Shown: positions 7,710 to 41,959 of the stretch, one piece after another
Layout of the letters: every line of letters begins with the position of its first letter
How positions within the stretch are numbered: the stretch's first letter is position 1
Source of the DNA: Gordonia sp. (in: high G+C Gram-positive bacteria)
GTDB taxonomy: Bacteria; Actinomycetota; Actinomycetes; Mycobacteriales; Mycobacteriaceae
Assembly (NCBI RefSeq): GCF_012515855.1
Contig: NZ_JAAYXO010000014.1
Location: 4,472 to 68,471, forward strand
Length of the DNA stretch: 64,000 nucleotides
Direction of reading: 5' to 3'
Notes under the pieces: model-generated
The model's database searches: none
What the model saw: the letters and a program-made list of their open reading frames with translations, nothing else
What the model was told of the DNA's origin: nothing
Program-made: the position numbers and the translations under genes

Positions 7710-7774
7710 GCCGCCAAGTGGTTGCTGTAGCAAGCATGATCGGGGACCTCGTGGTCGTCGTTGCAACCCAGGAT

Positions 7775-7933
7775 CATAGGATTTGCTAGCAGTTAGCTAA
7801 ATGGCGCAAGCCGGGCGGGTAGGACCATCTCGTTGCTGAAGGCCAGGTAAGCGTAGGTTTACTTCTGGCTGAAAGTATGTCTTCGAGCGTGACATCGACC
7901 ACTCTGCTAGCTGATTCGCTAGCTTTTGTTAGC
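7775..7933. promoter_or_regulatory. Cluster of GCTAGC-based palindromic boxes upstream of hbhA
   Basis: CATAGGA-TT-TGCTAGC (7775-7790), TGCTAGC (7905-7911) and GCTAGCT-TT-TGTTAGC (7918-7933) in an AT-rich intergenic region. Confidence 0.55.
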
Positions 7934-7981
7934 ACTGTGGCGCACACTGATAGTGCAAGTTATCGCAAGCAAGGAGTTACC

Positions 7982-8680
7982 ATGAGCACCGTCGAACGTA
8001 CCCTCCCCACCCCGGTCTACGCCGTCGTCGGCGCCGGTGACGTCGCCGTCCAGGAAGTCAAGGACGCCCTCGCCGAGCTGAAGACCCGCGCACAGTCGTC
8101 GCGTGAGCGCACCCAGACCCGCCTGGACGAGACCCGCGCCCGCCTGACCGAGCTGCCGACCGAGTTCCCCAGCGTCGAAGAGCTGCGCGCCAAGCTGACC
8201 ACCGAGGAGCTCCTCAAGGTCGCTGAGCCGTACATCGAGGCCACCACCGGCCTGTACAACTCGCTCGCGGAGCGTGGCGAGAGCGCTGTCGAGCGTCTCC
8301 GTCAGACCCCGTACGTCGAGGAGAACATCGCCCGCGTCGAGAAGGTCTACGCGGACGCTGTGGACCTGACCGAGGACGCCCTGGGCGCCGTGTCGACCCA
8401 GACCCGCGAGCTGGGCGAGCGCGCTGCCGCACTGGCCGGCCGCACCGCTGATCGCGTCGAGGACGCGGCTGTCGCCGCTGACGAGGTCTCGGAGAAGCTG
8501 CTCGACGCGGCTGCCGACATCGAGTCCGCAGGCGTCAAGGCCAAGGCTGACGCCGACGCCGCCGCCGAGAAGGTCACCGCGACCGCCGCACGCAAGCCGG
8601 CTGCGAAGCCCGCCGCCAAGAAGGCTGCACCCGCCAAGAAGGCCGCTCCGGCCAAGAAGGCTGCACCGACCGCCAAGTGA
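7982..8680 (+). CDS. hbhA: Heparin-binding haemagglutinin / TadA-MLDS lipid-droplet protein
   Basis: PVYAVVGAGDVAVQ N-terminus, coiled-coil body, C-terminal (KKAAPA)n repeats; AAGGAG RBS. Confidence 0.9.
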   Translation: MSTVERTLPTPVYAVVGAGDVAVQEVKDALAELKTRAQSSRERTQTRLDETRARLTELPTEFPSVEELRAKLTTEELLKVAEPYIEATTGLYNSLAERGESAVERLRQTPYVEENIARVEKVYADAVDLTEDALGAVSTQTRELGERAAALAGRTADRVEDAAVAADEVSEKLLDAAADIESAGVKAKADADAAAEKVTATAARKPAAKPAAKKAAPAKKAAPAKKAAPTAK

Positions 8681-10947: not shown

Positions 10948-11011
10948 CGTCGTGTGGGATTCACTGTGTCCCAGCGCTTCACCGCACGTCATCCGGGCTC
11001 CGGTCACCTGC

Positions 11012-11027
11012 GCTTGCATCTGCTAGC
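11012..11027. promoter_or_regulatory. 16-bp near-palindrome upstream of the Rv0474-like regulator
   Basis: GCTTGCA-TC-TGCTAGC, with one mismatch between arms. Confidence 0.6.
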
Positions 11028-11069
11028 GCAGGTCGCGGATACTGGAATGGCGGGAGGAGAACAGTTCAC

Positions 11070-11570
11070 ATGACATCCGAGCAGAACCACAGCCGCGAGC
11101 ACGGCGACGAGCATGACAGCGGAACCGTCGACGCCGTGGCGAACGCCGCGCAGGACATCGGCGACTTCATTCGCAGCCAGCGCTTGTCGGCCAAGGTCTC
11201 GCTGCGTCAGCTCGCCGAGCGCGCCGGCGTCTCGAATCCCTACCTGTCGCAGATCGAGCGCGGCCTCCGCAAGCCGTCAGCCGACGTCCTCTCCCAGATC
11301 GCGAAGGGCCTTCGGGTCTCGGCCGAGGTGCTCTACGTCCGCGCGGGCATTCTGGAGGCCCGGCCCGCCAGCCCGGTGCGCGACGCCCTGCTCGCGGACA
11401 ACTCCATCAGCGAACGCCAGAAGCAGATGCTGCTGGAGATCTACGATTCGTTCCGCCGCGAGAACCCGCAAGACGACGTCGAACAGCCTCCGCTCGTCGA
11501 CGGCGCCCCCATCCTGCCGGACGGGGTGATCGAAGCCCTCGGTGCCGATTCGGCACCGCCTACGCCGTGA
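11070..11570 (+). CDS. XRE-family HTH regulator (Rv0474 / MLDSR-like)
   Basis: DIGDFIRSQR...SLRQLAERAGVSNPYLSQIERGLRKPS; GGAGGAG RBS; position after DUF445. Confidence 0.9.
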   Translation: MTSEQNHSREHGDEHDSGTVDAVANAAQDIGDFIRSQRLSAKVSLRQLAERAGVSNPYLSQIERGLRKPSADVLSQIAKGLRVSAEVLYVRAGILEARPASPVRDALLADNSISERQKQMLLEIYDSFRRENPQDDVEQPPLVDGAPILPDGVIEALGADSAPPTP

Positions 11571-33693: not shown

Positions 33694-36324
33694 GTGAACA
33701 GAACGCGGGATCGGCGGCCGACCAGTTGGCACCGTCGCGCGGGCATGCCCGTGCGGGTCTGGATGATGGTGTTGATCCTGGTGGGATTGGCGCACTGGGC
33801 CATCCCGAACTCGCGCTGGCTGCTGGTCCACATCTTCACGATCGGGCTGGTCGCGAACTCGATCCTGCTGTGGTCGCAGACCCTCGCCGAACGTTTCCTG
33901 GGACATCATCTGCCGCCGGAGCGGCGACCGTGGCAGATCGGTCGCATCTATGCCGTCAACGTCGGTCTGCTCGTGATCATCGTCGGCATGCTCGGCGCAT
34001 GGTGGCAGGTCACCATGGTCGGCGCCATCGTGATCGGCAGTGTGCTGGCGTGGCATGCGGTGGCGCTCGCCCTGTTGATCGGCGAGTCGCGGCGAGTGCG
34101 GGCCGAACGGGGCGAGGGCCCGGCAGAGAACGAAGGCAGCGCGTGGTTCTTCGTCGCGTCCGCCTGCCTGCTGCCCTTCGGCGCCGGCTTCGGAGTCGCG
34201 TTGGCCTACGGTTTCGCCGACCCCGAACAGGCGGGCTTCCTGGTGGCGCACCAGGCGCTCAACATTCTCGGGTTCCTGGGTCTGGCCGCCGCAGGTGTCC
34301 TTATGGTGATGTTCCCGCGCCTGCTGGGGGAGACGCAGGTGAGCACTCGGCGACGGCCGCCGGCACTCGCAGCGCTGGTGGTCGGAGTCGCGGTGATCTG
34401 CTCGGGCGCGCTCTCGGACCAACCGGTGGTCGCGGCCGTCGGCGTCGGGGTCTACCTCGTCGGGTGGCTGATCGTCGTCGCGCCGTTCGTGCCGGTGCTG
34501 CTGCGGCGACCGCCCGACTCCTACGCGTCGGCCTCGATCACCGCGGCGCTGCTCTGGCTCATCGGGTCGCTGACGGCTTACGCCGTGATCCTGCTGACCG
34601 GGCCGTTCGACGCCTCGCGCATCTCGCTGCTCACGGTGTGGTTCTTGGCGGGCTTCGCCGGTCAGTTGCTGCTCGGTGTGATGAGTCACCTGCTGCCGAC
34701 CATGATGGGCGGCGGCGAGGTGACGGTCGCGGGCAAGCGCGTGATGAACACCTGGTGGCTGTGGCGGGTGCTCGTGATCAACGCCGGCTTGCTGCTGTGG
34801 CTGATGCCGCTCACCAGCTGGGTCAAGGTGACCCTCTCGGCGCTGGTGATGCTGGCGTACATCCTGTTCCTGCCGATCATGATTCGCAGTGCGGTCGCCG
34901 CGATGGCAGTGCGGCGAGCGCAGGCGGCTGCGAGCGATGTCTCGGAGGCGCCCGCCGCCGCCCCGGCGACTGTCGGGTCTCGGGCGCCGCAACTCGGACT
35001 CCAAGGTGTCGCCGCCGCGACCGCACTCGCGCTGGTGATCTCGGTGGGGGTGGCGCTGGGCGGCGGCGGGACGCTGTCGGCCGACGACGCCTCCGGAGGT
35101 GTGGCACCCACCGGCCAGACGACGACCGTTCAGGTCGACGCGGTCGGCATGCGATTCACCCCGGAGACCATCACGGTGCCGAAGGGCGACCGCCTGGTCC
35201 TCACCGTGACCAACAAGGACGACATGGTGCACGACCTCGTCCTCGAGACCGGACAGAACACCGGTCGCCTCGCGCCGGGACAGTCCGCGACCGTCGACGT
35301 CGGCGTCGTCGGACGGTCGATCGAAGGCTGGTGCTCGATCATCGGCCACCGGCAGCAGGGGATGGTCCTGCACATCAAGGTCGAGGGCGACGACGGCTCC
35401 ACTGGCCACGACGGACACGGCGCCGGTGGTCCCGCGACCGGGCCCGCGGCCACGGTGGACTTCATGAAGGATCCGGGCCCCGACTTCCGGGCTCGCGATC
35501 CGCGGTTGGCTCCGGCACCCGCGGGAGAAGTGCACAAGTACACCTTCGAGGTGACCGAGGCGCCCGGCGAGATCGCACCCGGCACCACCGCCACTCGCTG
35601 GACGTATAACGGGGAGACGATGGGGCCGGTGCTCCGCGGCAAGCTCGGCGACACCTTCGAGATCACGCTGGTGAACAACGGCACCATGGCGCACTCCGTC
35701 GACTTCCACGCGGGCATGGTCTCGCCCGACACGAACATGCGCGACATCAACCCCGGCGAGCGCCTCGTCTACCGCTTCCGCGCCGAGCACACCGGCATCT
35801 GGCTGTATCACTGCGCGACGATGCCGATGCCGGTGCACCTGGCAGCCGGCATGTTCGGAGCCGTGGTGATCGATCCGCCGGATCTGGCTCCCGTCGACGC
35901 CGAATACCTGTTCACCCAGTCCGAGTGGTACCTCGGGCCGGATGGGGCGCCGATCGATGCCGACAAGGTGGCGGCCGGTATTCCCGACCTGGTGATGTTC
36001 AACGGCTACGCGAACCAGTACGTATACCGGCCGCTGCGAGCGAAGGTCGGCGACCGCATCCGGATGTGGGTGCTCGACGCCGGGCCCAACGAGCCGCTGT
36101 CGTTCCACGTGATCGGCAGCCAGTTCGACACCGTCTACAAGGAGGGCGCCTACCTGCTGCGGCGCGACAACGCCCTGCGCGGCGGATCGCAGGCACTGGG
36201 CCTCCTGCCCGCGCAGGGCGGTTTTGTTGAGATGACCTTCCTGGAACCGGGCACCTACACGTTCCTCAACCACCGCATGTTCGACGGCGACCGCGGCGCG
36301 ATGGGCAAGATCATCGTCGAATAG
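33694..36324 (+). CDS. nirK: Fusion of a multi-pass (NnrS-like) membrane domain, a cupredoxin and a copper nitrite reductase
   Basis: About 12-13 hydrophobic segments, then HDL...WCSIIGHRQQGM (type-1 Cu), then HSVDFH, YHCATMPMPVHLAAGM, SFHVIG, NHRMF; TAATAT -10 six nt before the GTG. Confidence 0.85.
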   Translation: MNRTRDRRPTSWHRRAGMPVRVWMMVLILVGLAHWAIPNSRWLLVHIFTIGLVANSILLWSQTLAERFLGHHLPPERRPWQIGRIYAVNVGLLVIIVGMLGAWWQVTMVGAIVIGSVLAWHAVALALLIGESRRVRAERGEGPAENEGSAWFFVASACLLPFGAGFGVALAYGFADPEQAGFLVAHQALNILGFLGLAAAGVLMVMFPRLLGETQVSTRRRPPALAALVVGVAVICSGALSDQPVVAAVGVGVYLVGWLIVVAPFVPVLLRRPPDSYASASITAALLWLIGSLTAYAVILLTGPFDASRISLLTVWFLAGFAGQLLLGVMSHLLPTMMGGGEVTVAGKRVMNTWWLWRVLVINAGLLLWLMPLTSWVKVTLSALVMLAYILFLPIMIRSAVAAMAVRRAQAAASDVSEAPAAAPATVGSRAPQLGLQGVAAATALALVISVGVALGGGGTLSADDASGGVAPTGQTTTVQVDAVGMRFTPETITVPKGDRLVLTVTNKDDMVHDLVLETGQNTGRLAPGQSATVDVGVVGRSIEGWCSIIGHRQQGMVLHIKVEGDDGSTGHDGHGAGGPATGPAATVDFMKDPGPDFRARDPRLAPAPAGEVHKYTFEVTEAPGEIAPGTTATRWTYNGETMGPVLRGKLGDTFEITLVNNGTMAHSVDFHAGMVSPDTNMRDINPGERLVYRFRAEHTGIWLYHCATMPMPVHLAAGMFGAVVIDPPDLAPVDAEYLFTQSEWYLGPDGAPIDADKVAAGIPDLVMFNGYANQYVYRPLRAKVGDRIRMWVLDAGPNEPLSFHVIGSQFDTVYKEGAYLLRRDNALRGGSQALGLLPAQGGFVEMTFLEPGTYTFLNHRMFDGDRGAMGKIIVE

Positions 36325-36349
36325 CGGCGGTGGGCGGCGTGCCCTGTGC

Positions 36350-37102
36350 TCAGGTGGTTGCGGTCCATCCGCCGTCCATGATGTACGACGATCCGGTGAC
36401 CATCCCGGCCCCGTCGCTGCACAGCCATGACACCAGGTCGGCGACCTCTGACGGCTCGATCAACCGCTTGATCACCGGGCCCGCGAGGAAGATCTTCTCG
36501 ACCACCTCGTCCTCGGAGATGCCGTGGGCGACGGCCTGCTCCGCGATCTGCTTGGTCACCAGCGCGGTCTTCACGTAGCCGGGGTTCACGCAGTTGCTGG
36601 TGACGCCGTGCGGACCGCCTTCGGCGGCGGTGACCTTGGCGAGTCCCTCCAAGGCATGCTTGGCGGTCACGTAGGCGGACTTGTAGGGCGAGGCGCGGAG
36701 ACCGTGCACCGACGAGACGTGCACGATGCGCCCGAAGCCGCGCTCGTACATGCCGGGCAGGGCGGCGCGCGTCAGGAGGAACGGCGCCTCCACCATGAGC
36801 GCCAGGATGCGATGGAACCACTCCGGCTCGAAGTCCTGGATCGGGCTCACATGCTGGATACCCGCGTTGTGCACCAGGATGTCGGTGTCCAGGGTCAGAT
36901 CGGCCAGTGCGGCGGTGTCGGTGAGGTCGACGGCCCACGGGGTGCCGCCGATCTGCGCGGCGAACTGTGCCGCGCGGTCGCCGTCGACGTCGGCCACGGT
37001 GACGTGGGCGCCGTCGTCGGCCAGACGCTGGGCGACGGCGGCGCCGATGCCTGCGGCCGCGCCGGTGACCAGGGCGCGACGACCTGCCTGCGGCCCGCTC
37101 AT
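36350..37102 (-). CDS. bdhA: 3-hydroxybutyrate dehydrogenase
   Basis: TGAAAGIG, HNAGIQHVSPI, SSVHGLRASPYKSAYVTAKH, NPGYVKTALV. Confidence 0.9.
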   Translation of the reverse strand: MSGPQAGRRALVTGAAAGIGAAVAQRLADDGAHVTVADVDGDRAAQFAAQIGGTPWAVDLTDTAALADLTLDTDILVHNAGIQHVSPIQDFEPEWFHRILALMVEAPFLLTRAALPGMYERGFGRIVHVSSVHGLRASPYKSAYVTAKHALEGLAKVTAAEGGPHGVTSNCVNPGYVKTALVTKQIAEQAVAHGISEDEVVEKIFLAGPVIKRLIEPSEVADLVSWLCSDGAGMVTGSSYIMDGGWTATT

Positions 37103-38319
37103 GCCTCGCTCGATTCGATCGCGGCGACCGCGGTCTCGCGGTTGCGTCGGGCGAGGTCTTCGAAGATCTCGGTCCACGGTCCCGACAGGGCTGCGTGGCC
37201 CATGAACAAGCCGAGATGGCCTGCATCCAGGGTCCAGGTGCGGACATCGTCCGCCGGCGTCGAGACGGCCCCGGCGAGTGCGAACATCTGCGCCGGCGGC
37301 GTGATGTGGTCGCGTTCGCCCGCGATCAAGTACAGCGGAGCCTCGATCGCCGACAGGTCGACGACGGTGCCCTCCACCACCAGCTCGCCCGCGATCAACT
37401 GGTTCTTGAAGAACAGATGCTCCACCACCCACAGGTAGAAGGCGCCGGGCATGTCCTGCCCGTGCTCGAACCAGTTGGCGAACGAGTCGTACCGCTCCAC
37501 GTACTCGGGGTCGCGGATGCTGCCCCATAGCTGGCACAGGCGATTGAACTCTTCGGTGGGCTCGAGCATCTTGAAGCCGAGGACCTGGTTGGCGCCGAGG
37601 TGCTTGCCGCCGCCCGCTGCGACGAGCGCGCGGTAGGCGTCGATGTCGCCGTGGCGGGTGAGCGCGGACATCCACTCGCTGACCGCGGAGTCGCCCGCGT
37701 GCGTGTCGATGGGGGCGCCGCCCAGTGCCAGGCTGCGGACCGCGTGCGGGCGCAGAGCTGCATAGATCGCGGCGAGCCAACCGCCCTGACAGTCACCGAC
37801 GAGGTGAACTGCTCCGCCGACCTCGGCGCCGACCTCGGCGACGATCTCGTCGAGAATCGAGATGTAGTCCTCGACGGTGATGTTCGCGGTGGCCTCGGTG
37901 GCGGGCAGGTAGTCGACGGAGTACACGCGGTCGACGCCCGCGGCGAGTGCGGTACGCACCTGACTCTGGTCGGCGGAGTAGTCGACGATGGTCGACGCAT
38001 GTCCGCCCTGGGGTGGCAGGAAGACGATCGGGACCTGCGTCGCGTCGGCGTCCGGGGTCGAGAAGTCGAGCAGTCGGACCTGCGGCCAGGTGCGCACCAC
38101 CGTGTGGGGCGTGGCCCAGTCGGGCTTGGTCCGCTTGGTCGCCGCCTGCGTCCATGCTGCCCAGTCCGAGAGCATGTGCATCGGAGTGAAGGTGCCCGAG
38201 GTCAGGGCGGCGGTGCTGTAGCCGGTCCATCCCTTGATCCACGCGGTGGCGAGATCGGTCGGGGCCTGCGCCCACCGTTGGACCTGAGTGGGCGCGGTGG
38301 GCGTCGTCGTCGCGGTCAT
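37099..38319 (-). CDS. PHA depolymerase/synthase-fold alpha/beta hydrolase with a Cys nucleophile
   Basis: LPPQGGH, GDCQGGW lipase box, GERDHITP, AGHLGLF (C-D-H triad); coupled to bdhA by an ATGA overlap. Confidence 0.7.
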   Translation of the reverse strand: MTATTTPTAPTQVQRWAQAPTDLATAWIKGWTGYSTAALTSGTFTPMHMLSDWAAWTQAATKRTKPDWATPHTVVRTWPQVRLLDFSTPDADATQVPIVFLPPQGGHASTIVDYSADQSQVRTALAAGVDRVYSVDYLPATEATANITVEDYISILDEIVAEVGAEVGGAVHLVGDCQGGWLAAIYAALRPHAVRSLALGGAPIDTHAGDSAVSEWMSALTRHGDIDAYRALVAAGGGKHLGANQVLGFKMLEPTEEFNRLCQLWGSIRDPEYVERYDSFANWFEHGQDMPGAFYLWVVEHLFFKNQLIAGELVVEGTVVDLSAIEAPLYLIAGERDHITPPAQMFALAGAVSTPADDVRTWTLDAGHLGLFMGHAALSGPWTEIFEDLARRNRETAVAAIESSEA

Positions 38320-38408
38320 CGGCGCACCTCGCTGACGGTCGAGACGCTGACGGTCGAGACAGGGGGCCGACCGGGGCCTCCGCACACGGTGATCTTGCTC
38401 TCGTTCAT
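38316..38408 (-). CDS. Putative 30-aa leader ORF, MNESKITVCGGPGRPPVSTVSVSTVSEVRR
   Basis: GAGG RBS, ATG at 38408; its TGA overlaps the ATG of the next gene; contains a 15-bp tandem duplication (38331-38360). Confidence 0.4.
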   Translation of the reverse strand: MNESKITVCGGPGRPPVSTVSVSTVSEVRR

Positions 38409-38438
38409 GGCACAACCTCACAGTCGACGATTCCTTGG

Positions 38439-38458
38439 TGCTAGCAACGCTAGCTAGC
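38439..38458. promoter_or_regulatory. GCTAGC boxes upstream of the PHA-hydrolase/bdhA operon
   Basis: TGCTAGCA-AC-GCTAGCTAGC. Confidence 0.55.
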
Positions 38459-38485
38459 GATCGGCGATCGTGAGGGTATTTCGAC

Positions 38486-38872
38486 TCATTCGTCGTTGGG
38501 CGAGTCCTGGGACTCATTGCTTCCGGGTGCCCCTCCGGTACGGAGCGCACGCGATGCGACCAGCATGTTCTGGTACACGTGCGTCAAGGATCGCTGCTGC
38601 TCCGGCGTCAATTCCGGGTCGGCCTGAATGGCGGCGACCACGTCAGACACCTGGTCGCTCGGTGCCGCGAGCTCCTCGGCATCGAGTCCGAGCGCGTCGG
38701 CGAGCGCATGGAGAACCTCTTGGCTCGGCGCGCGCAGGCCGTGCTCGATCTGCGACAGGTAGGGATTCGAGATGCCGACCATCGTCGCGAGCTGCCGCAG
38801 CGACAGGGCGGCTACCTGACGTTGGTAGCGGACGATGTCGCCGATCGGGTGGGGCAGGTCAGGACTGGACAA
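38486..38872 (-). CDS. XRE-family regulator, paralogue of the Rv0474/MLDSR-like protein
   Basis: IGDIVRYQR...SLRQLATMVGISNPYLSQIEHGLRAPS; TTG start with an AGGAG RBS. Confidence 0.88.
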   Translation of the reverse strand: MSSPDLPHPIGDIVRYQRQVAALSLRQLATMVGISNPYLSQIEHGLRAPSQEVLHALADALGLDAEELAAPSDQVSDVVAAIQADPELTPEQQRSLTHVYQNMLVASRALRTGGAPGSNESQDSPNDE

Positions 38873-38885
38873 TGACAGAGTGCTC

Positions 38886-39803
38886 CTAAGCGCGATCGGA
38901 GTCAGCGAAGTGTCCGGTGAGCTCGCCGACGATCTGGTCCCACAGCGGACGCGGGAGGTCGTGGGCCATACCGTCGACCACGGTGAGGTGCGCACCACGC
39001 ACCGTCTTCGCGATCGCTTCGGCACCCGACATGCGCATCAGCTTGTCATGGGATCCGTGCAGGACGAGCGTCGGCGCTGCAATACGGCGGTCGGCGGCGA
39101 CCAAGCTGCCAGTTCCCATGATGGCGGCGAACTGGCGGGCGAACCCGACCGGATAGAAGCTGCGGTCGTAATACTCGGCGGCGTGCGCACGCGCCACCGC
39201 CGGCTCCGGTGGGTAGACGGGGCTGCCGATGATGCGCGACAGGCGCATGCTCTGGGCGATGACATCGTCGCGCGTCGCGTTCTTGGGCGGCCGCTTCAAC
39301 AGTGCGAGCATCTGCCGAGGGCCGGGCGGCGGAAGGAAACGGCGGTTGTTGCTCGACATGATCACCGTGGCCGACAGCGCACGGTCGGCGTGCTCGGCGC
39401 AGAAGACCTGGGCGATCATTCCGCCCATGGATGCGCCGACGATGTGGGCGCGCTCGATGCCGAGGTGATCGAGAACCCCGGCGGCGTCGTCGGCCATGTC
39501 GGAGAGGGTGTACGCGGTGCCTGCGGTCGGGATGCCCGCCCAGTAGCGGGCCAGATTCAGCAACAGCGGGCCCCCGCCCGGGGCCACCCCGTCGAGCTTC
39601 GACGACAGCCCGCTGTCGCGATTGTCGAATCGGATCACCCGGTAGCCGTGCGCCGCGATCTGCTCGCAGAACTCGGTGCGCCAGAACACCATCTGCGCGC
39701 CGATGCCCATGATGAGCAGGACGGCGGGATCGTCGGGGTCGCCGAACTCGTCGAAGCAGATCTCGAGATCGCCGACCGCTGCGGTACCGGTGCGTGAAGG
39801 CAT
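38886..39803 (-). CDS. Alpha/beta hydrolase (LipG-like)
   Basis: LLIMGIGAQ, FDNRDSG, GASMGG, HGSHD, GMAHD. Confidence 0.88.
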   Translation of the reverse strand: MPSRTGTAAVGDLEICFDEFGDPDDPAVLLIMGIGAQMVFWRTEFCEQIAAHGYRVIRFDNRDSGLSSKLDGVAPGGGPLLLNLARYWAGIPTAGTAYTLSDMADDAAGVLDHLGIERAHIVGASMGGMIAQVFCAEHADRALSATVIMSSNNRRFLPPPGPRQMLALLKRPPKNATRDDVIAQSMRLSRIIGSPVYPPEPAVARAHAAEYYDRSFYPVGFARQFAAIMGTGSLVAADRRIAAPTLVLHGSHDKLMRMSGAEAIAKTVRGAHLTVVDGMAHDLPRPLWDQIVGELTGHFADSDRA

Positions 39804-39837
39804 GCGAACACTCCTGTCTGGTCGGCGCAGAAAGTTG

Positions 39838-40314
39838 TCAGAGCAGAACGAAGAGATCGGTGCGGAGGTCGTCGTGCTCGATGACGCTGGGGTCGGTGAC
39901 ATAGACCTCGACGATCGCGCGCGGGGCGGAACCACCCTTGGCGAAGTGCCTTTCCATCAGCGACTCCCATGCGGAACCGAGGCCGTCGAACCCGCCGAGG
40001 TGCGACATCACCAGCGCGTGCCCGGTCGGGAAGTACCCGTTGTCGAGGCCGTCGACATCGGTGCGCCCGGCGACGGGGAAACCGATGGTGAGGTCGAACT
40101 CGTCGGTCACGTCGCCGTGATAGATCGCGAATCCGGGGCCGATCGGTCCGGCCTGGGCGAGTTCGTGGAAGTGGCTGTCGAAGATCTCGGGGAGACGGTC
40201 GAGGGTGACCTCGGGGAACTCCATGGTCACCACCGCGACGCCCTCGGGCAGTTCGATCTCGATGGCGTCGAAGAACGGCTCTTCACGAAGGATCAGCGGC
40301 AGCGAATCGGTCAT
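39838..40314 (-). CDS. GyrI-like small-molecule-binding protein
   Basis: GPGFAIYH, LTIGFPV, SHLGGFDGLGSAWESL, VEVYVTDP; TATTAT -10 six nt before the ATG. Confidence 0.8.
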   Translation of the reverse strand: MTDSLPLILREEPFFDAIEIELPEGVAVVTMEFPEVTLDRLPEIFDSHFHELAQAGPIGPGFAIYHGDVTDEFDLTIGFPVAGRTDVDGLDNGYFPTGHALVMSHLGGFDGLGSAWESLMERHFAKGGSAPRAIVEVYVTDPSVIEHDDLRTDLFVLL

Positions 40315-40387
40315 GCACAGATAATACGACTGCCCTCCGACATCGCGTGTGGTGCGCGGACCAGGTTCTCCGGGCAAAATGGGCGAC

Positions 40388-41959
40388 GTGACCGAGACCG
40401 ATCTTGTCGTCGACACCGTCTACGGCCCGCTTCGAGGCACCAGCACACCCTCCGCCGACCTGTGGCTCGGCGTCGCCTATGCCGCCCGGCCGACCGGACC
40501 GCGTCGCTGGCTCCACGCTCAGCCGCCCCGGGAACGCACCGAGATCGTCGACGCGCGCAACTACGCGCCCGTCTGTCCGCAGCCGGTGATGCAGGTCATC
40601 GACCTCGGACCTGACGCCTACGCGAACGAGGACTGTCTCTATCTGAATGTCGGAACCCCGCGCGACGTCGCGGGCACTGACGCACGTCTGCCGGTGATGG
40701 TCTGGGTGCACGGCGGCGCCTACCTGTGCGGTGCGGGATCGCAGCCGCTGTACGACCCGGGCTCGCTGGTGCAGTCGTCAGTGACCCGCGGGACACCGAC
40801 CGTCATCGTCACCCTCAACTACCGGATGGGTGCCTTCGGTTTCGCCGACCTGCGTCACTTCTCGTCCGGAGACCAGGAGTTCCAGGCCAACTGCGGACTG
40901 TCGGACGTGATCGCCGCGCTCGGGTGGGTGCGCGACAACATCGAGCGCTTCGGTGGCGACCCCGCCAACGTCACGCTGTTCGGCGAGTCGGCAGGCGCGG
41001 GCGTCGTCACCACGCTGTTGGCCTCGCCCGCGGCGAAAGGCCTGTTCCACAAGGCCATTGCGCAGAGCTCGCCGGCGACCACCGTGTACGACGCCGAGCG
41101 GGGCGAGCGCTATGCCAACATGCTGCTGGCCGAGCTCCCCCGCGAGTACGTCCGGTCGGGAAACCTGCGTCAAACGCCCGCGCTGAATCTGGTGAACGCG
41201 TCGTCGACCGTCTTCAACCTGGTCCCGAATCGATTTCCGGGGACCATCGCCTTTGCCCCCGTGGTCGACGGTGATCTGGTTCCGCTGGATCCGCTCGAAG
41301 CCATCGTCACCGGTGAATCGCACCGCGTGCCGCTGCTGATCGGCACCAATCGTCACGAGACCTCGCTGTTCCGCTGGATGTCGACCCCGCTGCTGCCGGT
41401 GAAAGACCAGGGTGTCGACGCCATGTTCACGTTGATCGGCGCTGAACGGCCGGGGCTGCGGATTCCGGAGGCGGACCATCTCGATTCGTCGTACCGGCAC
41501 GTTCCCTCGGGGGTGCGGAGCATGGCGATCTCCCGTGACATCGGCTTCCGAATGCCCGCGGTGTGGATCACCGAGTCGCACGCGCAGGTGGCGCCGGTGT
41601 ACCTGTATCGCTTCGATTGGGCGACCCCACTTCTCCGCGTCCTCGGTTACGGCGCCGCGCATGCCACGGAGGTGCCGTACGTGTGGGGCAATCCGGCGTC
41701 GACCAAGCGCGACCCGATGTATGCGCTCGGCGGTCGTGCGACGGGGGAGAAGGTTCGCCACCGGATGCAGTACCGCTGGCTCGGCTTCGCTGCAGACGGT
41801 GACCCGAACACCGGCGAGGACGGCGATGCGATCTGGGAGGCGTACGAGCCGATGCGCCACAGTTCGCTGCTGATCGGCGGCAACGACGATCTGGCAGTGG
41901 AAGGCTTGGACGACAACATCCTGCGTGCCTGGGGAGACGAGGTGCTCAGCTTTCGATGA
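40388..41959 (+). CDS. Type-B carboxylesterase (LipT-like)
   Basis: NEDCLYLN, WVHGGAY, NYRMG, FGGDPANVTLFGESAG, HATEV. Confidence 0.92.
   Translation: MTETDLVVDTVYGPLRGTSTPSADLWLGVAYAARPTGPRRWLHAQPPRERTEIVDARNYAPVCPQPVMQVIDLGPDAYANEDCLYLNVGTPRDVAGTDARLPVMVWVHGGAYLCGAGSQPLYDPGSLVQSSVTRGTPTVIVTLNYRMGAFGFADLRHFSSGDQEFQANCGLSDVIAALGWVRDNIERFGGDPANVTLFGESAGAGVVTTLLASPAAKGLFHKAIAQSSPATTVYDAERGERYANMLLAELPREYVRSGNLRQTPALNLVNASSTVFNLVPNRFPGTIAFAPVVDGDLVPLDPLEAIVTGESHRVPLLIGTNRHETSLFRWMSTPLLPVKDQGVDAMFTLIGAERPGLRIPEADHLDSSYRHVPSGVRSMAISRDIGFRMPAVWITESHAQVAPVYLYRFDWATPLLRVLGYGAAHATEVPYVWGNPASTKRDPMYALGGRATGEKVRHRMQYRWLGFAADGDPNTGEDGDAIWEAYEPMRHSSLLIGGNDDLAVEGLDDNILRAWGDEVLSFR

What the first reader, a model, noticed from the sequence alone, without database searches (positions are those of the whole stretch)
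36350..38872. Second MLDSR-like regulator heading a PHA-type enzyme and 3-hydroxybutyrate dehydrogenase: a possible storage-carbon regulon
Seen: the XRE protein at 38486-38872 shares the recognition helix SNPYLSQIExGLRxPS with the Rv0474-like protein at 11070. Just downstream lies TGCTAGCA-AC-GCTAGCTAGC, the same half-site found before hbhA and before the first regulator, although the spacing is one base shorter. It is followed by a translationally coupled Cys-nucleophile hydrolase (GDCQGG, D, H) and bdhA. Inference: two paralogues with near-identical DNA-reading heads link lipid-droplet protein expression to polyester or 3-hydroxybutyrate mobilisation. Whether the enzyme is a depolymerase or a synthase cannot be settled from motifs; coupling to bdhA favours degradation.
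Basis: partly seen in the sequence, partly recalled or inferred. Interest (0 to 1): 0.7.

Follow-up and report, generated by a model that had tools for sequence, protein, structure and literature searches.

The report
Polyester-cluster repressor, operator, hydrolase and bdhA
A small DNA-binding regulator, its conserved binding site, a cysteine hydrolase related to bioplastic (PHB) enzymes and a 3-hydroxybutyrate dehydrogenase form a cut-down version of a polyester-storage gene cluster found in many Actinobacteria, whose regulator family and operator have not been described for such clusters.

Summary
XRE gene 38486-38872(-), site TGCTAGCAACGCTAGCTAGC (38439-38458), Cys-Asp-His hydrolase 37099-38319(-) and bdhA 36350-37102(-, ATGA overlap) are all present.

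Comparison of 80 related loci shows the unit is a reduced actinobacterial PHA cluster. Homologues of the hydrolase lie beside an XRE of the same family in 56/80 loci. They lie beside a divergent phasin in 58, BdhA in 35 and a genuine class I- or III-like PhaC in 43.

The window's core GCTAGC-GTT-GCTAGC has the sequence, spacing and orientation of GCTAAC-GTT-GCTAAC found upstream of the phasin gene in those clusters. Half-sites occur at 10/kb there against 0.13/kb elsewhere.

The "one base shorter" spacing is therefore the normal geometry of the PHA-type operator. The published MLDSR box (4-nt spacer) occurs in the window before hbhA and the first regulator only.

The shared recognition helix is invariant across the whole family, so it is not a special link between the two paralogues. 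Cross-regulation is untested.

A depolymerase role is favoured because a separate synthase is present in related clusters and because of the BdhA coupling. It is not proven, and sequence similarity is higher to synthases. No phaC or phasin lies in the 64-kb window.

The parts
38486..38872 (-). XRE-family (MLDSR/Rv0474-type) transcription regulator, 128 aa, PHA-cluster clade ('XRE2')
   Evidence: HTH_3 E=2e-13. 78% identical to the G. hydrophobica orthologue in the same gene order, and 40-56% identical to XREs beside the enzyme in 56/80 loci. The recognition helix and the C-terminal helix are conserved across the family. GGAG lies 10 nt before TTG 38872 and the gene starts 13 nt after the upstream stop, so it is probably co-transcribed with 38886-39935.
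38439..38458 (.). Operator: three GCTAGC half-sites. Read in gene direction it is GCTAGCTAGC-GTT-GCTAGCA. It contains a -10-like TAGCGT.
   Evidence: Unique in the window. 19 of 20 nt are identical in G. hydrophobica while the flanks have diverged. The core GCTARC-N3-GCTARC is found in 23/81 loci against about 3 hits in shuffles, almost always 0-75 nt upstream of the phasin-like gene and in the same orientation. Half-sites are about 75-fold enriched in those upstream regions.
38416..38475 (-). Extended inverted repeat (arms 38416-38431 and 38460-38475) with the operator at its apex. The 3' arm covers the GAGG before ATG 38408.
   Evidence: the repeat finder pair I1, 16 nt, 81% complementary. 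RNA fold -28.2 kcal/mol, z=-2.6. The G. hydrophobica spacer folds likewise with different arm sequences, z=-3.2. Its function was not established.
38316..38408 (-). 30-codon upstream ORF starting at the ancestral start codon. Its stop overlaps the hydrolase ATG (ATGA).
   Evidence: Translation. The alignment with G. hydrophobica shows about 95 extra nt (about 38301-38395) after the shared ATGAACGA, including a 15-nt tandem duplication at 38330-38359. The region is identical in contigs of three independent samples.
37099..38319 (-). Cys-Asp-His alpha/beta hydrolase, 406 aa, PhaC/PhaZ/DUF3141 superfamily. Probable intracellular poly/oligo-3-hydroxybutyrate depolymerase.
   Evidence: Pfam DUF3141 90 bits and PHB_depo_C 37 bits, both above the gathering scores. 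NCBIfam class III PhaC 131 bits (cut-off 365) and PhaZ 61 bits (cut-off 301). Best PDB match is the C. necator PhaC catalytic domain, E=2.9e-13, with C177 aligned to C319 and D337 to D480. The triad is >=95% conserved.
36350..37102 (-). 3-hydroxybutyrate dehydrogenase (BdhA), 250 aa, start overlapping the hydrolase stop
   Evidence: NCBIfam PRK12429 scores 264 bits against a cut-off of 258. TIGR01963 scores 290.5 against 307. Translation. A BdhA homologue lies beside the enzyme in 35/80 loci.
38886..39935 (-). Serine-type alpha/beta hydrolase (family 'F7') directly upstream of the XRE. A possible accessory esterase of the unit. The real start is probably near 39803.
   Evidence: Abhydrolase_1 E=4e-23. 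Weak NCBIfam matches to macrolide esterase and mcl-PHA depolymerase models, all below cut-off. The same gene order is found in G. hydrophobica. F7 follows the phasin-like gene under the operator in L054; in L065 the two were called adjacent only in the ORF map.

Best explanation
This is a reduced actinobacterial polyhydroxyalkanoate (PHA) mobilisation unit under an MLDSR-family XRE repressor.

**Shown**
- The XRE at 38486-38872 belongs to a clade that sits in PHA gene clusters of many Actinobacteria.
- The site at 38439-38458 has the sequence, 3-nt spacing and orientation of the operator found upstream of the phasin-like gene in those clusters.
- The two genes behind the site are a Cys-Asp-His hydrolase of a PhaC-related family and a 3-hydroxybutyrate dehydrogenase whose start overlaps the hydrolase stop.

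**Inferred**
- XRE2 dimers bind the GCTAGC half-sites.
- In the phasin promoters of related clusters the half-sites coincide with the -35 (TTAGCA) and -10 (TAAYNT) hexamers. Here a -10-like TAGCGT lies inside the site. A bound regulator would therefore exclude RNA polymerase and repress hydrolase-bdhA.
- The hydrolase cleaves poly- or oligo-3-hydroxybutyrate to 3-hydroxybutyrate, and BdhA oxidises that to acetoacetate.

**By analogy only**
- MLDSR is titrated by lipid droplets and PhaR by PHB granules. The regulator may likewise be released from DNA when it binds the surface of a hydrophobic inclusion through its conserved C-terminal helix.

**What this lineage has lost**
- In this Gordonia lineage the phasin and synthase genes are not in the locus. 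The operator has ended up directly in front of the hydrolase.
For: - **Gene anatomy:**
- **Co-occurrence in 80 loci from genome contigs:** XRE 56, phasin-like F2 58, BdhA 35, PhaB-like 35, class I- or III-like PhaC 43.
- **Same order elsewhere:** XRE > operator > F2 > hydrolase occurs in L010, L011, L013, L015, L016 and L021. That is the window's order plus the phasin gene.
- **Operator core:** GCTARC-N3-GCTARC at <=1 mismatch gives 28 hits in 23/81 loci, against 0-6 in Markov shuffles, nearly all just upstream of F2.
- **Half-site density:** 9.98/kb upstream against 0.13/kb elsewhere.
- **Other Gordonia:** operator-like sites lie before the hydrolase in G. hydrophobica, G. asplenii and G. neofelifaecis.
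- **Experimental anchor:** the half-site equals that of the experimentally defined MLDSR box (PMC5504291). The recognition helix is invariant across the family.
- **F2 is phasin-like:** 23/32 members give weak Phasin_2 hits.
- **Catalytic triad:** conserved and aligned to PhaC C319/D480.
- **BdhA:** reaches the NCBIfam cut-off.
Against: - No binding, expression or enzyme data exist for any member of this clade. No RNA runs hold the region.
- The enzyme scores higher against PHA synthase models (131 bits, class III) than against the PhaZ model (61 bits). Its only solved relatives are synthases.
- No phaC or phasin was found in 64 kb. No close PhaC from G. hydrophobica appeared among the 120 best relatives of the G. 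asplenii PhaC. The physiological substrate in this organism is therefore uncertain.
- No sigma-70-like promoter was found by the consensus scan. The -10 assignment is by eye.
- The XRE1 paralogue has the same recognition helix and could be the protein that binds here.
Confidence: 0.6

Rival explanations
1. The enzyme is a PHA synthase of an undescribed class, not a depolymerase. The small F2 protein of related clusters would be its partner subunit or its phasin. In the window it would polymerise 3-hydroxyacyl-CoA.
For: The best curated model is class III PhaC, at 131 bits against 61 for PhaZ. That is as high as a class I PhaC scores against the class III model. The best solved relatives are PhaC catalytic domains with Cys/Asp aligned. 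The nucleophile box G-x-C-x-G-G is of the synthase type (my recollection of the PhaC box). F2 lies directly upstream in most loci. JGI names are split between synthetase and depolymerase.
Against: All curated synthase cut-offs are missed by a wide margin. In 43/80 loci a separate, much better-scoring PhaC is present, with PhaB and a small F5 protein. The enzyme is translationally coupled to, or adjacent to, BdhA, which acts on the free acid and not the CoA ester. Pfam PHB_depo_C is above its gathering score. No thiolase or reductase lies in the window locus.
Confidence: 0.2
2. The site at 38439-38458 is read by the Rv0474/MLDSR-type paralogue (11070-11570) as well as, or instead of, the adjacent XRE. 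Lipid-droplet protein expression and 3-hydroxybutyrate mobilisation would then share one regulator.
For: The recognition helices are identical at the DNA-contacting stretch. The same GCTAGC half-site lies before hbhA, before the first regulator and here.
Against: The helix is invariant in the whole family, so it carries no specific information. The MLDSR study reports that orientation and spacing matter for binding (PMC5504291). Boxes with a 4-nt spacer occur only at hbhA and XRE1 in the window. The 4-nt spacing is not enriched in the PHA loci, while 2-3 nt and 8-9 nt spacers are. The adjacent XRE groups with the PHA-cluster clade and the other does not.
Confidence: 0.25
3. The hydrolase acts on neutral lipid or other thioester/ester substrates of lipid droplets and not on a polyester. 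The precedent would be the PhaC-like N-terminal domain of mycobacterial Rv1683-type proteins. The PHA context in other phyla would then say nothing about Gordonia.
For: There is a weak match to NCBIfam PRK07868 (60 bits, N-terminal third of a 994-aa acyl-CoA synthetase fusion). No phaC or phasin lies in the window. Gordonia are known mainly as triacylglycerol storers (my knowledge, not tested here).
Against: Tight coupling to a protein that reaches the 3-hydroxybutyrate dehydrogenase cut-off. The same hydrolase-BdhA pairing occurs in 35/80 loci, most of them with PHA synthesis genes.
Confidence: 0.1
4. The palindrome is a chance or purely structural feature, such as a hairpin after the XRE gene, with no regulatory protein bound.
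For: The spacer folds into a hairpin with z=-2.6, and z=-3.2 in G. hydrophobica. No promoter consensus was found.
Against: The 20-mer is unique, with 0 expected. It is conserved where the flanks are not. Its core recurs in distant taxa at the equivalent position with about 75-fold half-site enrichment. It matches an experimentally defined half-site of the family.
Confidence: 0.03

Closest known systems
MLDSR (RHA1_ro02105) of Rhodococcus jostii and its M. tuberculosis counterpart Rv0474
   Same: Same XRE family, of about 130-170 aa. Identical recognition-helix motif SNPYLSQIERGLRxPS and a conserved C-terminal helix. The half-site G(C/T)TAGC is that of the published 16-bp box. A repressor site overlapping a promoter is the logic proposed here too.
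   Different: Only 44% identical to the window's Rv0474-like paralogue. The operator has a 3-nt spacer, not a 4-nt one. The targets are a hydrolase and bdhA (a phasin in other taxa), not the HbhA/MLDS/TadA protein. No operator lies upstream of the regulator gene in 55/57 related loci, so autoregulation is unlikely. Inclusion binding is untested.
PhaR, the PHB-granule-titrated repressor of phasin genes in Cupriavidus/Paracoccus
   Same: It works alike, as inferred here. A small repressor is encoded in the PHA cluster and its operator overlaps the phasin promoter. Release by binding to the storage inclusion is the obvious model.
   Different: Not homologous. PhaR is not an XRE/HTH_3 protein (my knowledge). 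Here the family is XRE. PhaR autoregulates, and the cluster XREs mostly lack an operator of their own.
XRE-family protein H16_B1672 of Ralstonia eutropha, which binds the phaP1 promoter (PMC11332829)
   Same: An XRE-type protein that binds a phasin promoter and represses it in reporter assays.
   Different: It was found by DNA-affinity purification, and no clustering with PHA genes was reported in the passages read.
PhaZa1-type intracellular PHB depolymerase (TIGR01849, Pfam PHB_depo_C)
   Same: Cys-Asp-His triad, about 400 aa, cytoplasmic. The PHB_depo_C match is above the Pfam gathering score. The enzyme sits in a PHA cluster.
   Different: 61 bits against a cut-off of 301 for TIGR01849. The N-terminal two thirds resemble DUF3141/PhaC more closely.
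Class III/I PHA synthase PhaC (TIGR01836; PDB 5HZ2, 5T6O, 5XAV)
   Same: Best-scoring curated family and the only solved relatives. C177/D337 align to the catalytic C319/D480.
   Different: 131 bits against a cut-off of 365. No PhaC_N domain and no PhaE/PhaR-like partner beside it. It co-occurs with a true PhaC in 43/80 loci and pairs with BdhA.
DUF3141 proteins beside phaC-phaR-phaP in Pseudomonas PHA islands (bioRxiv 10.1101/2025.03.12.642780)
   Same: The Pfam DUF3141 match is above the gathering score. There is a recurrent, unexplained presence in PHA clusters.
   Different: The match covers only positions 54-332 of the 582-position model. The actinobacterial proteins are about 390 aa, and their regulators are XRE rather than PhaR.

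Membership tests
MLDSR/Rv0474-type XRE regulators | HTH_3 (Cro/C1) domain with the family recognition helix | tested here: met
   HTH_3 E=2e-13. GISNPYLSQIEHGLRAPS matches the >=80% consensus of 47 relatives and XRE1.
MLDSR/Rv0474-type XRE regulators | Binding box GNT(T/A)GCTNNTGCTANC (half-sites with a 4-nt spacer) at the target promoter | tested here: not met
   The 38439 site is not among the 8 window hits at <=2 mismatches. Its half-sites have a 3-nt spacer. The half-site sequence itself is met.
MLDSR/Rv0474-type XRE regulators | Encoded with, and regulating, the HbhA/MLDS/TadA lipid-droplet protein | tested here: not met
   The hbhA-like gene is at 7982-8680 and the Rv0474-like gene at 11070, 27-30 kb away. 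This XRE sits between two hydrolase genes.
MLDSR/Rv0474-type XRE regulators | Sequestration on lipid droplets through helices alpha2/alpha6 | not testable with these tools
   Only conservation of a C-terminal helix, ELTxAQRRALxEIYRxF, can be shown.
PHA-cluster XRE clade (defined here) | Lies within 4 kb of the PhaC-related Cys hydrolase, with a GCTARC-N3-GCTARC-type operator before the first gene of the phasin/hydrolase operon | tested here: met
   Window and G. hydrophobica. 56/80 loci have the XRE and 23/81 have the strict 15-mer. The NJ tree places the window protein with the cluster XREs of G. hydrophobica, G. asplenii and Brevibacterium (no bootstrap).
Class III PHA synthase PhaC (TIGR01836) | Score at or above the curated cut-off (365.3 bits) | tested here: not met
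   130.6 bits. The class III-like PhaC of related loci scores 300 bits.
Class III PHA synthase PhaC (TIGR01836) | Cys-Asp-His catalytic residues in a G-x-C-x-G-G box | tested here: met
   GDCQGG C177, D337 and H368 are conserved and aligned to 5HZ2.
Class III PHA synthase PhaC (TIGR01836) | Adjacent partner subunit PhaE (or PhaR in class IV) | tested here: not met
   The neighbours in the window are an XRE and BdhA. No F5 or F2 homologue lies in the window.
Intracellular PHB depolymerase PhaZ (TIGR01849 / Pfam PHB_depo_C) | Score at or above the curated cut-offs | tested here: inconclusive
   Pfam PHB_depo_C 37 bits against a gathering score of 27: met. TIGR01849 61 bits against 300.75: not met.
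Intracellular PHB depolymerase PhaZ (TIGR01849 / Pfam PHB_depo_C) | Hydrolysis or thiolysis of native PHB granules | not testable with these tools
   Only genomic association with PhaC, phasin and BdhA can be shown.
Pfam DUF3141 | Match above the gathering score (29.7 bits) | tested here: met
   90 bits, but only profile positions 54-332 of 582 are covered.
3-hydroxybutyrate dehydrogenase (BdhA) | NCBIfam curated cut-off | tested here: met
   PRK12429 264.1 bits against 258. TIGR01963 290.5 against 307.05, just below.

The most novel reading that the evidence does not exclude
MLDSR-family XRE proteins would be the general sensors of storage inclusions in Actinobacteria. One branch (MLDSR/Rv0474) reads operators with a 4-nt spacer and controls the lipid-droplet coat protein. 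A second, undescribed branch reads operators with 2-3-nt and 8-9-nt spacers built into the phasin promoter and controls PHA granule proteins and mobilisation. This would be a non-homologous functional replacement of PhaR. In the same clusters, the about 390-aa GDCQGG enzyme would be a new family of intracellular PHB depolymerase, or possibly a fifth kind of synthase. The Gordonia window would be a relic that keeps only the regulator, the operator, the enzyme and BdhA.
Probability: 0.35. Interest if true: 0.75.

Novelty: new variant of a known kind. Interest (0 to 1): 0.55.

Why it matters
Regulation of PHA metabolism is known mainly from Proteobacteria (PhaR, PhaD) and Bacillus. I found no description of a regulator for actinobacterial PHA clusters.

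The comparison gives three things that can be tested directly:
- a candidate regulator family;
- a precise operator, GCTAAC-GTT-GCTAAC with upstream TTAGCA repeats that double as the -35 and -10 hexamers;
- a candidate depolymerase family present in hundreds of actinobacterial genomes and metagenome bins.

It also ties the lipid-droplet regulator MLDSR to polyester granules by common descent. That raises a clear evolutionary question about how bacteria sense hydrophobic storage bodies.

For the window itself the biology is modest. It holds a four-gene catabolic unit in a Gordonia that may not make PHA.

Tried and rejected
- **Phasin-like F2 versus the HbhA/MLDS protein.** I tested whether they are homologous, which would have unified the two regulons. 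hhalign gave probability 0.6%, so this is rejected. A PDB sequence search with the F2 profile gave nothing below E=0.29.
- **phaC, phasin or F5 in the window.** tblastn with all such proteins from the 80 loci found none.
- **A PhaC in the closest named relative.** The 120 best relatives of the G. asplenii PhaC include no other named Gordonia. This is weak negative evidence only.
- **Consensus promoter and terminator scan of 36200-40200.** No promoter was found, and the only terminator-like hits lie inside coding regions.
- **Rfam on 36000-40500.** Only chance-level hits appeared.
- **Expression data.** The runs that hold the region are DNA, metagenomes or of unrecorded kind, so transcription could not be examined.
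- **Literature on R. eutropha granule proteins A0671/B1632.** I recall these as DUF3141-like. Nothing relevant is in the library, so the point is left as an untested recollection.
- **GCTAGC as a bare hexamer.** It is not over-represented in the window (9 against 6.4). The significance lies in its clustering and spacing.
- **My ORF-based family counts.** They under-call overlapping genes and were replaced by tblastn-based counts.
- **Structure prediction of the enzyme.** Not run. The only solved relatives are synthases, so a fold match would not separate synthase from depolymerase.


Full report
**What is in the sequence**

On the minus strand, four genes follow one another.
- A serine-type alpha/beta hydrolase lies at 38886-39935.
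- An XRE regulator of 128 aa runs from TTG 38872 to the stop at 38486 (Pfam HTH_3, E=2e-13).
- After a 166-nt spacer comes a 406-aa alpha/beta hydrolase at 37099-38319.
- A 250-aa short-chain dehydrogenase follows at 36350-37102. Its ATG overlaps the hydrolase stop as ATGA.

The dehydrogenase reaches the NCBIfam cut-off for 3-hydroxybutyrate dehydrogenase (PRK12429, 264 against 258 bits).

The hydrolase matches Pfam DUF3141 (90 bits) and PHB_depo_C (37 bits), both above the gathering scores. It misses every curated NCBIfam cut-off: class III PhaC 131/365 and PhaZ 61/301.

The spacer holds TGCTAGCAACGCTAGCTAGC at 38439-38458. This sequence is unique in the window, with none expected by chance.

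**The two regulators**

The XRE is 44% identical over 102 aa to the protein at 11070-11570. That protein sits in the arrangement TetR - DUF445 - XRE - DUF2516. I recognise this as the Rv0472c-Rv0476 neighbourhood of M. tuberculosis.

An HbhA/MLDS-like protein with a lysine-rich PAKKA tail lies at 7982-8680.

The published MLDSR box, GNT(T/A)GCTNNTGCTANC (PMC5504291), is over-represented in the window: 8 hits at <=2 mismatches against 2.05 expected, 0/100 shuffles. Its best hits lie before hbhA (7720, 7918) and before the first regulator (11012). The window therefore carries an ordinary MLDSR-type regulon as well.

The site at 38439 is not hit by that pattern. Its GCTAGC pair has a 3-nt spacer rather than a 4-nt one.

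**Related loci**

A scan of one genome per species returned 80 loci that encode homologues of the hydrolase (44-82% identity). They come from Gordonia, Mycolicibacterium, Pseudonocardia, Kineosporia, Brevibacterium, Flexivirga, Conexibacter, Solirubrobacterales and many metagenome bins.

By tblastn, within 4 kb:

| Neighbour | Loci out of 80 |
|---|---|
| XRE of this family | 56 |
| small protein F2, about 95 aa | 58 |
| BdhA homologue | 35 |
| PhaB-like reductase | 35 |
| genuine PhaC | 43 |

- Of the 43 PhaC loci, 14 are class I-like (533-537 bits against TIGR01838, with PhaC_N at 3.7e-54).
- The other 29 are class III-like (300 bits), and 22 of those have a small F5 protein upstream.
- F2 is a divergent phasin: 23 of 32 members give sub-threshold Phasin_2 hits, the best at 5e-5.

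The commonest orders are:
- F5-PhaC(III)-PhaB-F2-(BdhA)-hydrolase with a convergent XRE;
- PhaC(I)-F2-hydrolase;
- XRE-F2-hydrolase.

G. hydrophobica has exactly the window's order. The window is thus a PHA cluster from which the synthase and phasin are missing. tblastn finds neither of them anywhere in the 64 kb.

**The operator**

Upstream of F2, almost every locus shows repeated half-sites. A typical example is TTAGCA-NN-TTAGCA-N7-8-TGCTAAC-G-TTGCTAAC.

The 15-mer GCTARC-N3-GCTARC at <=1 mismatch occurs 28 times in 23 of 81 sequences, against 0-6 in Markov shuffles. Nearly all hits lie 0-75 nt upstream of F2 and in the gene's orientation.

The window reads GCTAGC-GTT-GCTAGC, and the commonest form elsewhere is GCTAAC-GTT-GCTAAC. 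Strict half-site hexamers occur at 9.98 per kb in the 210 nt upstream of F2 or the hydrolase, against 0.13 per kb in the rest of the loci.

Some Solirubrobacterales loci (L032, L042, L054) even carry GCTAGCTAGC...TGCTAGCAC, as in the window.

Between the window and G. hydrophobica, 19 of the 20 operator bases are identical while the flanks have diverged. G. asplenii and G. neofelifaecis also carry operator-like sites before the hydrolase.

A spacer survey of the 80 loci shows enrichment of 2-3-nt and 8-9-nt spacers (36-55 hits against about 5-14). There is no enrichment of the 4-nt spacer of the MLDSR box (11 against about 8).

By my own reading of the sequences, the half-sites coincide with promoter hexamers. 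In L012, L018 and L049 the pattern is TTAGCA, 18 nt, then TAA(C/T)NT. In the window a -10-like TAGCGT lies inside the site.

The consensus scanner found no sigma-70 promoter. This is common for actinobacterial promoters, but it leaves the assignment unproven.

**The regulator family**

An alignment of 47 cluster XREs with both window proteins shows GISNPYLSQIERGLRAPS conserved at >=80% throughout. A C-terminal helix, ELTxAQRRALxEIYRxF, is conserved as well.

The shared recognition helix is thus a family signature. It explains the shared half-site, but it does not single out the two window paralogues.

Cluster XREs are 40-56% identical to the adjacent XRE and 36-59% identical to the Rv0474-like one.

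In an unbootstrapped NJ tree, the adjacent XRE groups with the cluster XREs of G. hydrophobica, G. asplenii and Brevibacterium. The Rv0474-like protein lies on a separate branch.

Only 2 of 57 cluster XRE genes have half-sites upstream. Most instead have a TANNNT hexamer 6-8 nt before the start codon, which is the signature of leaderless transcripts.

In the window the XRE follows the upstream hydrolase by 13 nt, with GGAG before its TTG. It is probably co-transcribed with that gene.

**Synthase or depolymerase**

C177 (in GDCQGG), D337 and H368 are >=95% conserved in 80 homologues. They align with the catalytic C319 and D480 of the C. necator synthase, the best solved relative (5HZ2, E=2.9e-13).

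Sequence similarity therefore leans towards synthases, and motifs cannot decide. The context does discriminate:
- the family is nearly always an extra enzyme beside a much better-scoring PhaC;
- it pairs with BdhA, which uses the free acid;
- in the window, G. hydrophobica, L048, L051 and L059 the two genes are directly adjacent.

I take depolymerase (hydrolysis of polymer or oligomers) as the more likely role, at roughly 0.55-0.6. A new synthase class stands at about 0.2.

Proteobacterial DUF3141 genes are likewise unexplained companions of phaC-phaR-phaP.

**Mechanism proposed**

XRE2 binds the GCTAGC half-sites that overlap the promoter of hydrolase-bdhA and represses it. Relief would come when the regulator is titrated by a hydrophobic storage body. 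This is shown for MLDSR and lipid droplets and is known for PhaR and PHB granules (my knowledge).

- Binding and repression are inferred from family, site conservation and position.
- The signal is analogy only.
- Cross-talk with the Rv0474-like paralogue is possible because the helices are identical, but the systematic spacing difference argues against it.

**Prior knowledge**

Literature searches for MLDSR (6 papers) and for XRE with phasin/PHA/Actinobacteria found no description of XRE regulators in actinobacterial PHA clusters.

An unrelated report shows an XRE-family protein, H16_B1672, binding the phaP1 promoter in R. eutropha. The Rhodococcus PHA loci described in PMC2667194 use serine-type PhaZ enzymes and unidentified small proteins.

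I therefore rate this a new variant of known kinds: an MLDSR-type regulator and a PHA-cluster repressor. Its value is mainly comparative.

**Side observations**

- Relative to G. hydrophobica, the window has about 95 extra nucleotides after the shared start codon. They include a 15-nt tandem duplication.
- This puts the ancestral ATG (38408) out of frame and creates a 30-codon upstream ORF whose stop overlaps the present hydrolase ATG.
- The arrangement is identical in contigs from three independent samples.
- The spacer also forms an extended hairpin with the operator at its apex, both here and in G. hydrophobica, with different arm sequences. I could not assign it a function.

Noticed in passing
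window 38301-38408: Compared with G. hydrophobica, the window has about 95 extra nt just after the shared start codon ATGAACGA, including a perfect 15-nt tandem duplication (38330-38359). The ancestral ATG (38408, with its GAGG) now opens a 30-codon ORF that ends in ATGA on the hydrolase ATG (38319). That ATG has its own GAGG 7 nt upstream. The arrangement is identical in contigs from three independent samples.
   Followed up: partly
window 38416-38475; L001 3926-3970: The XRE-hydrolase spacer forms an extended hairpin with the GCTAGC operator at the apex (z=-2.6). The G. hydrophobica spacer does the same with different arm sequences (z=-3.2). The 3' arm covers the Shine-Dalgarno GAGG of the ancestral start. 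It could be an attenuator of read-through transcripts or an extended DNA palindrome.
   Followed up: partly
window 7710-7980 and 11005-11040: The hbhA-like gene is preceded by at least three MLDSR-type boxes: 7720 GGTTGCTGTAGCAAGC, 7784 TGCTAGCAGTTAGCTAA and 7906-7935 GCTAGCTGATTCGCTAGCTTTTGTTAGC. The Rv0474-like regulator is preceded by one, 11012 GCTTGCATCTGCTAGC. hbhA is separated from the regulator by TetR and DUF445 genes, unlike the Rhodococcus mldsr-mlds operon.
   Followed up: partly
related loci, e.g. L026 5520-5560, L040 5574-5610, L045 5519-5560: Most cluster XRE genes have a TANNNT hexamer (TAGGCT, TACGCT, TATGCT, TACTCT) 6-8 nt before the ATG/GTG and no Shine-Dalgarno. This is the signature of leaderless mRNAs. 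Only 2 of 57 have operator half-sites upstream, so the regulator seems not to be autoregulated.
   Followed up: partly
related loci, upstream of the phasin-like gene (e.g. L012 2540-2580, L018 2392-2425, L049 2697-2735): The operator half-sites coincide with the promoter hexamers: TTAGCA (-35-like), 18 nt, TAA(C/T)NT (-10-like). The promoter is built from regulator half-sites. This recalls the 'motif 2 is the promoter' result for MLDSR.
   Followed up: partly
related loci, e.g. L045 1160-1612, L012 1-486: A small protein (F5, about 150-200 aa, no Pfam or NCBIfam match) precedes the class III-like PhaC in 22 loci. It is a candidate short PhaE/PhaR-type synthase subunit.
   Followed up: no
window 38886-39935; L054 506-1306; L065 2274-3098: The serine alpha/beta hydrolase upstream of the XRE (family F7) also lies beside the Cys hydrolase in G. 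hydrophobica and a few other loci. In L054 it directly follows the phasin-like gene under the operator; in L065 that adjacency appears only in the ORF map. It may be an oligomer esterase of the same regulon.
   Followed up: partly
window 38717-38797: Metagenome contigs pile up 3-10-fold on the 80 nt that encode the recognition helix (ISNPYLSQIEHGLR). Short contigs from other family members match this stretch at 85-95% identity, so the helix is conserved even at the DNA level.
   Followed up: no
window 33694-36324 (+): Convergent with bdhA lies an 876-aa protein. It has a long multi-pass hydrophobic N-terminal half fused to cupredoxin and multicopper-oxidase domains (Cu-oxidase_3, Cupredoxin_1).
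   Followed up: no
window 39838-40416 (-) and 40349-41959 (+): A GyrI-like small-molecule-binding protein (weak, E=1.5e-4) lies directly upstream of the F7 hydrolase on the same strand, and this is conserved in G. hydrophobica. It is divergent from a 536-aa carboxylesterase. The unit may be part of a longer esterase-rich operon.
   Followed up: no
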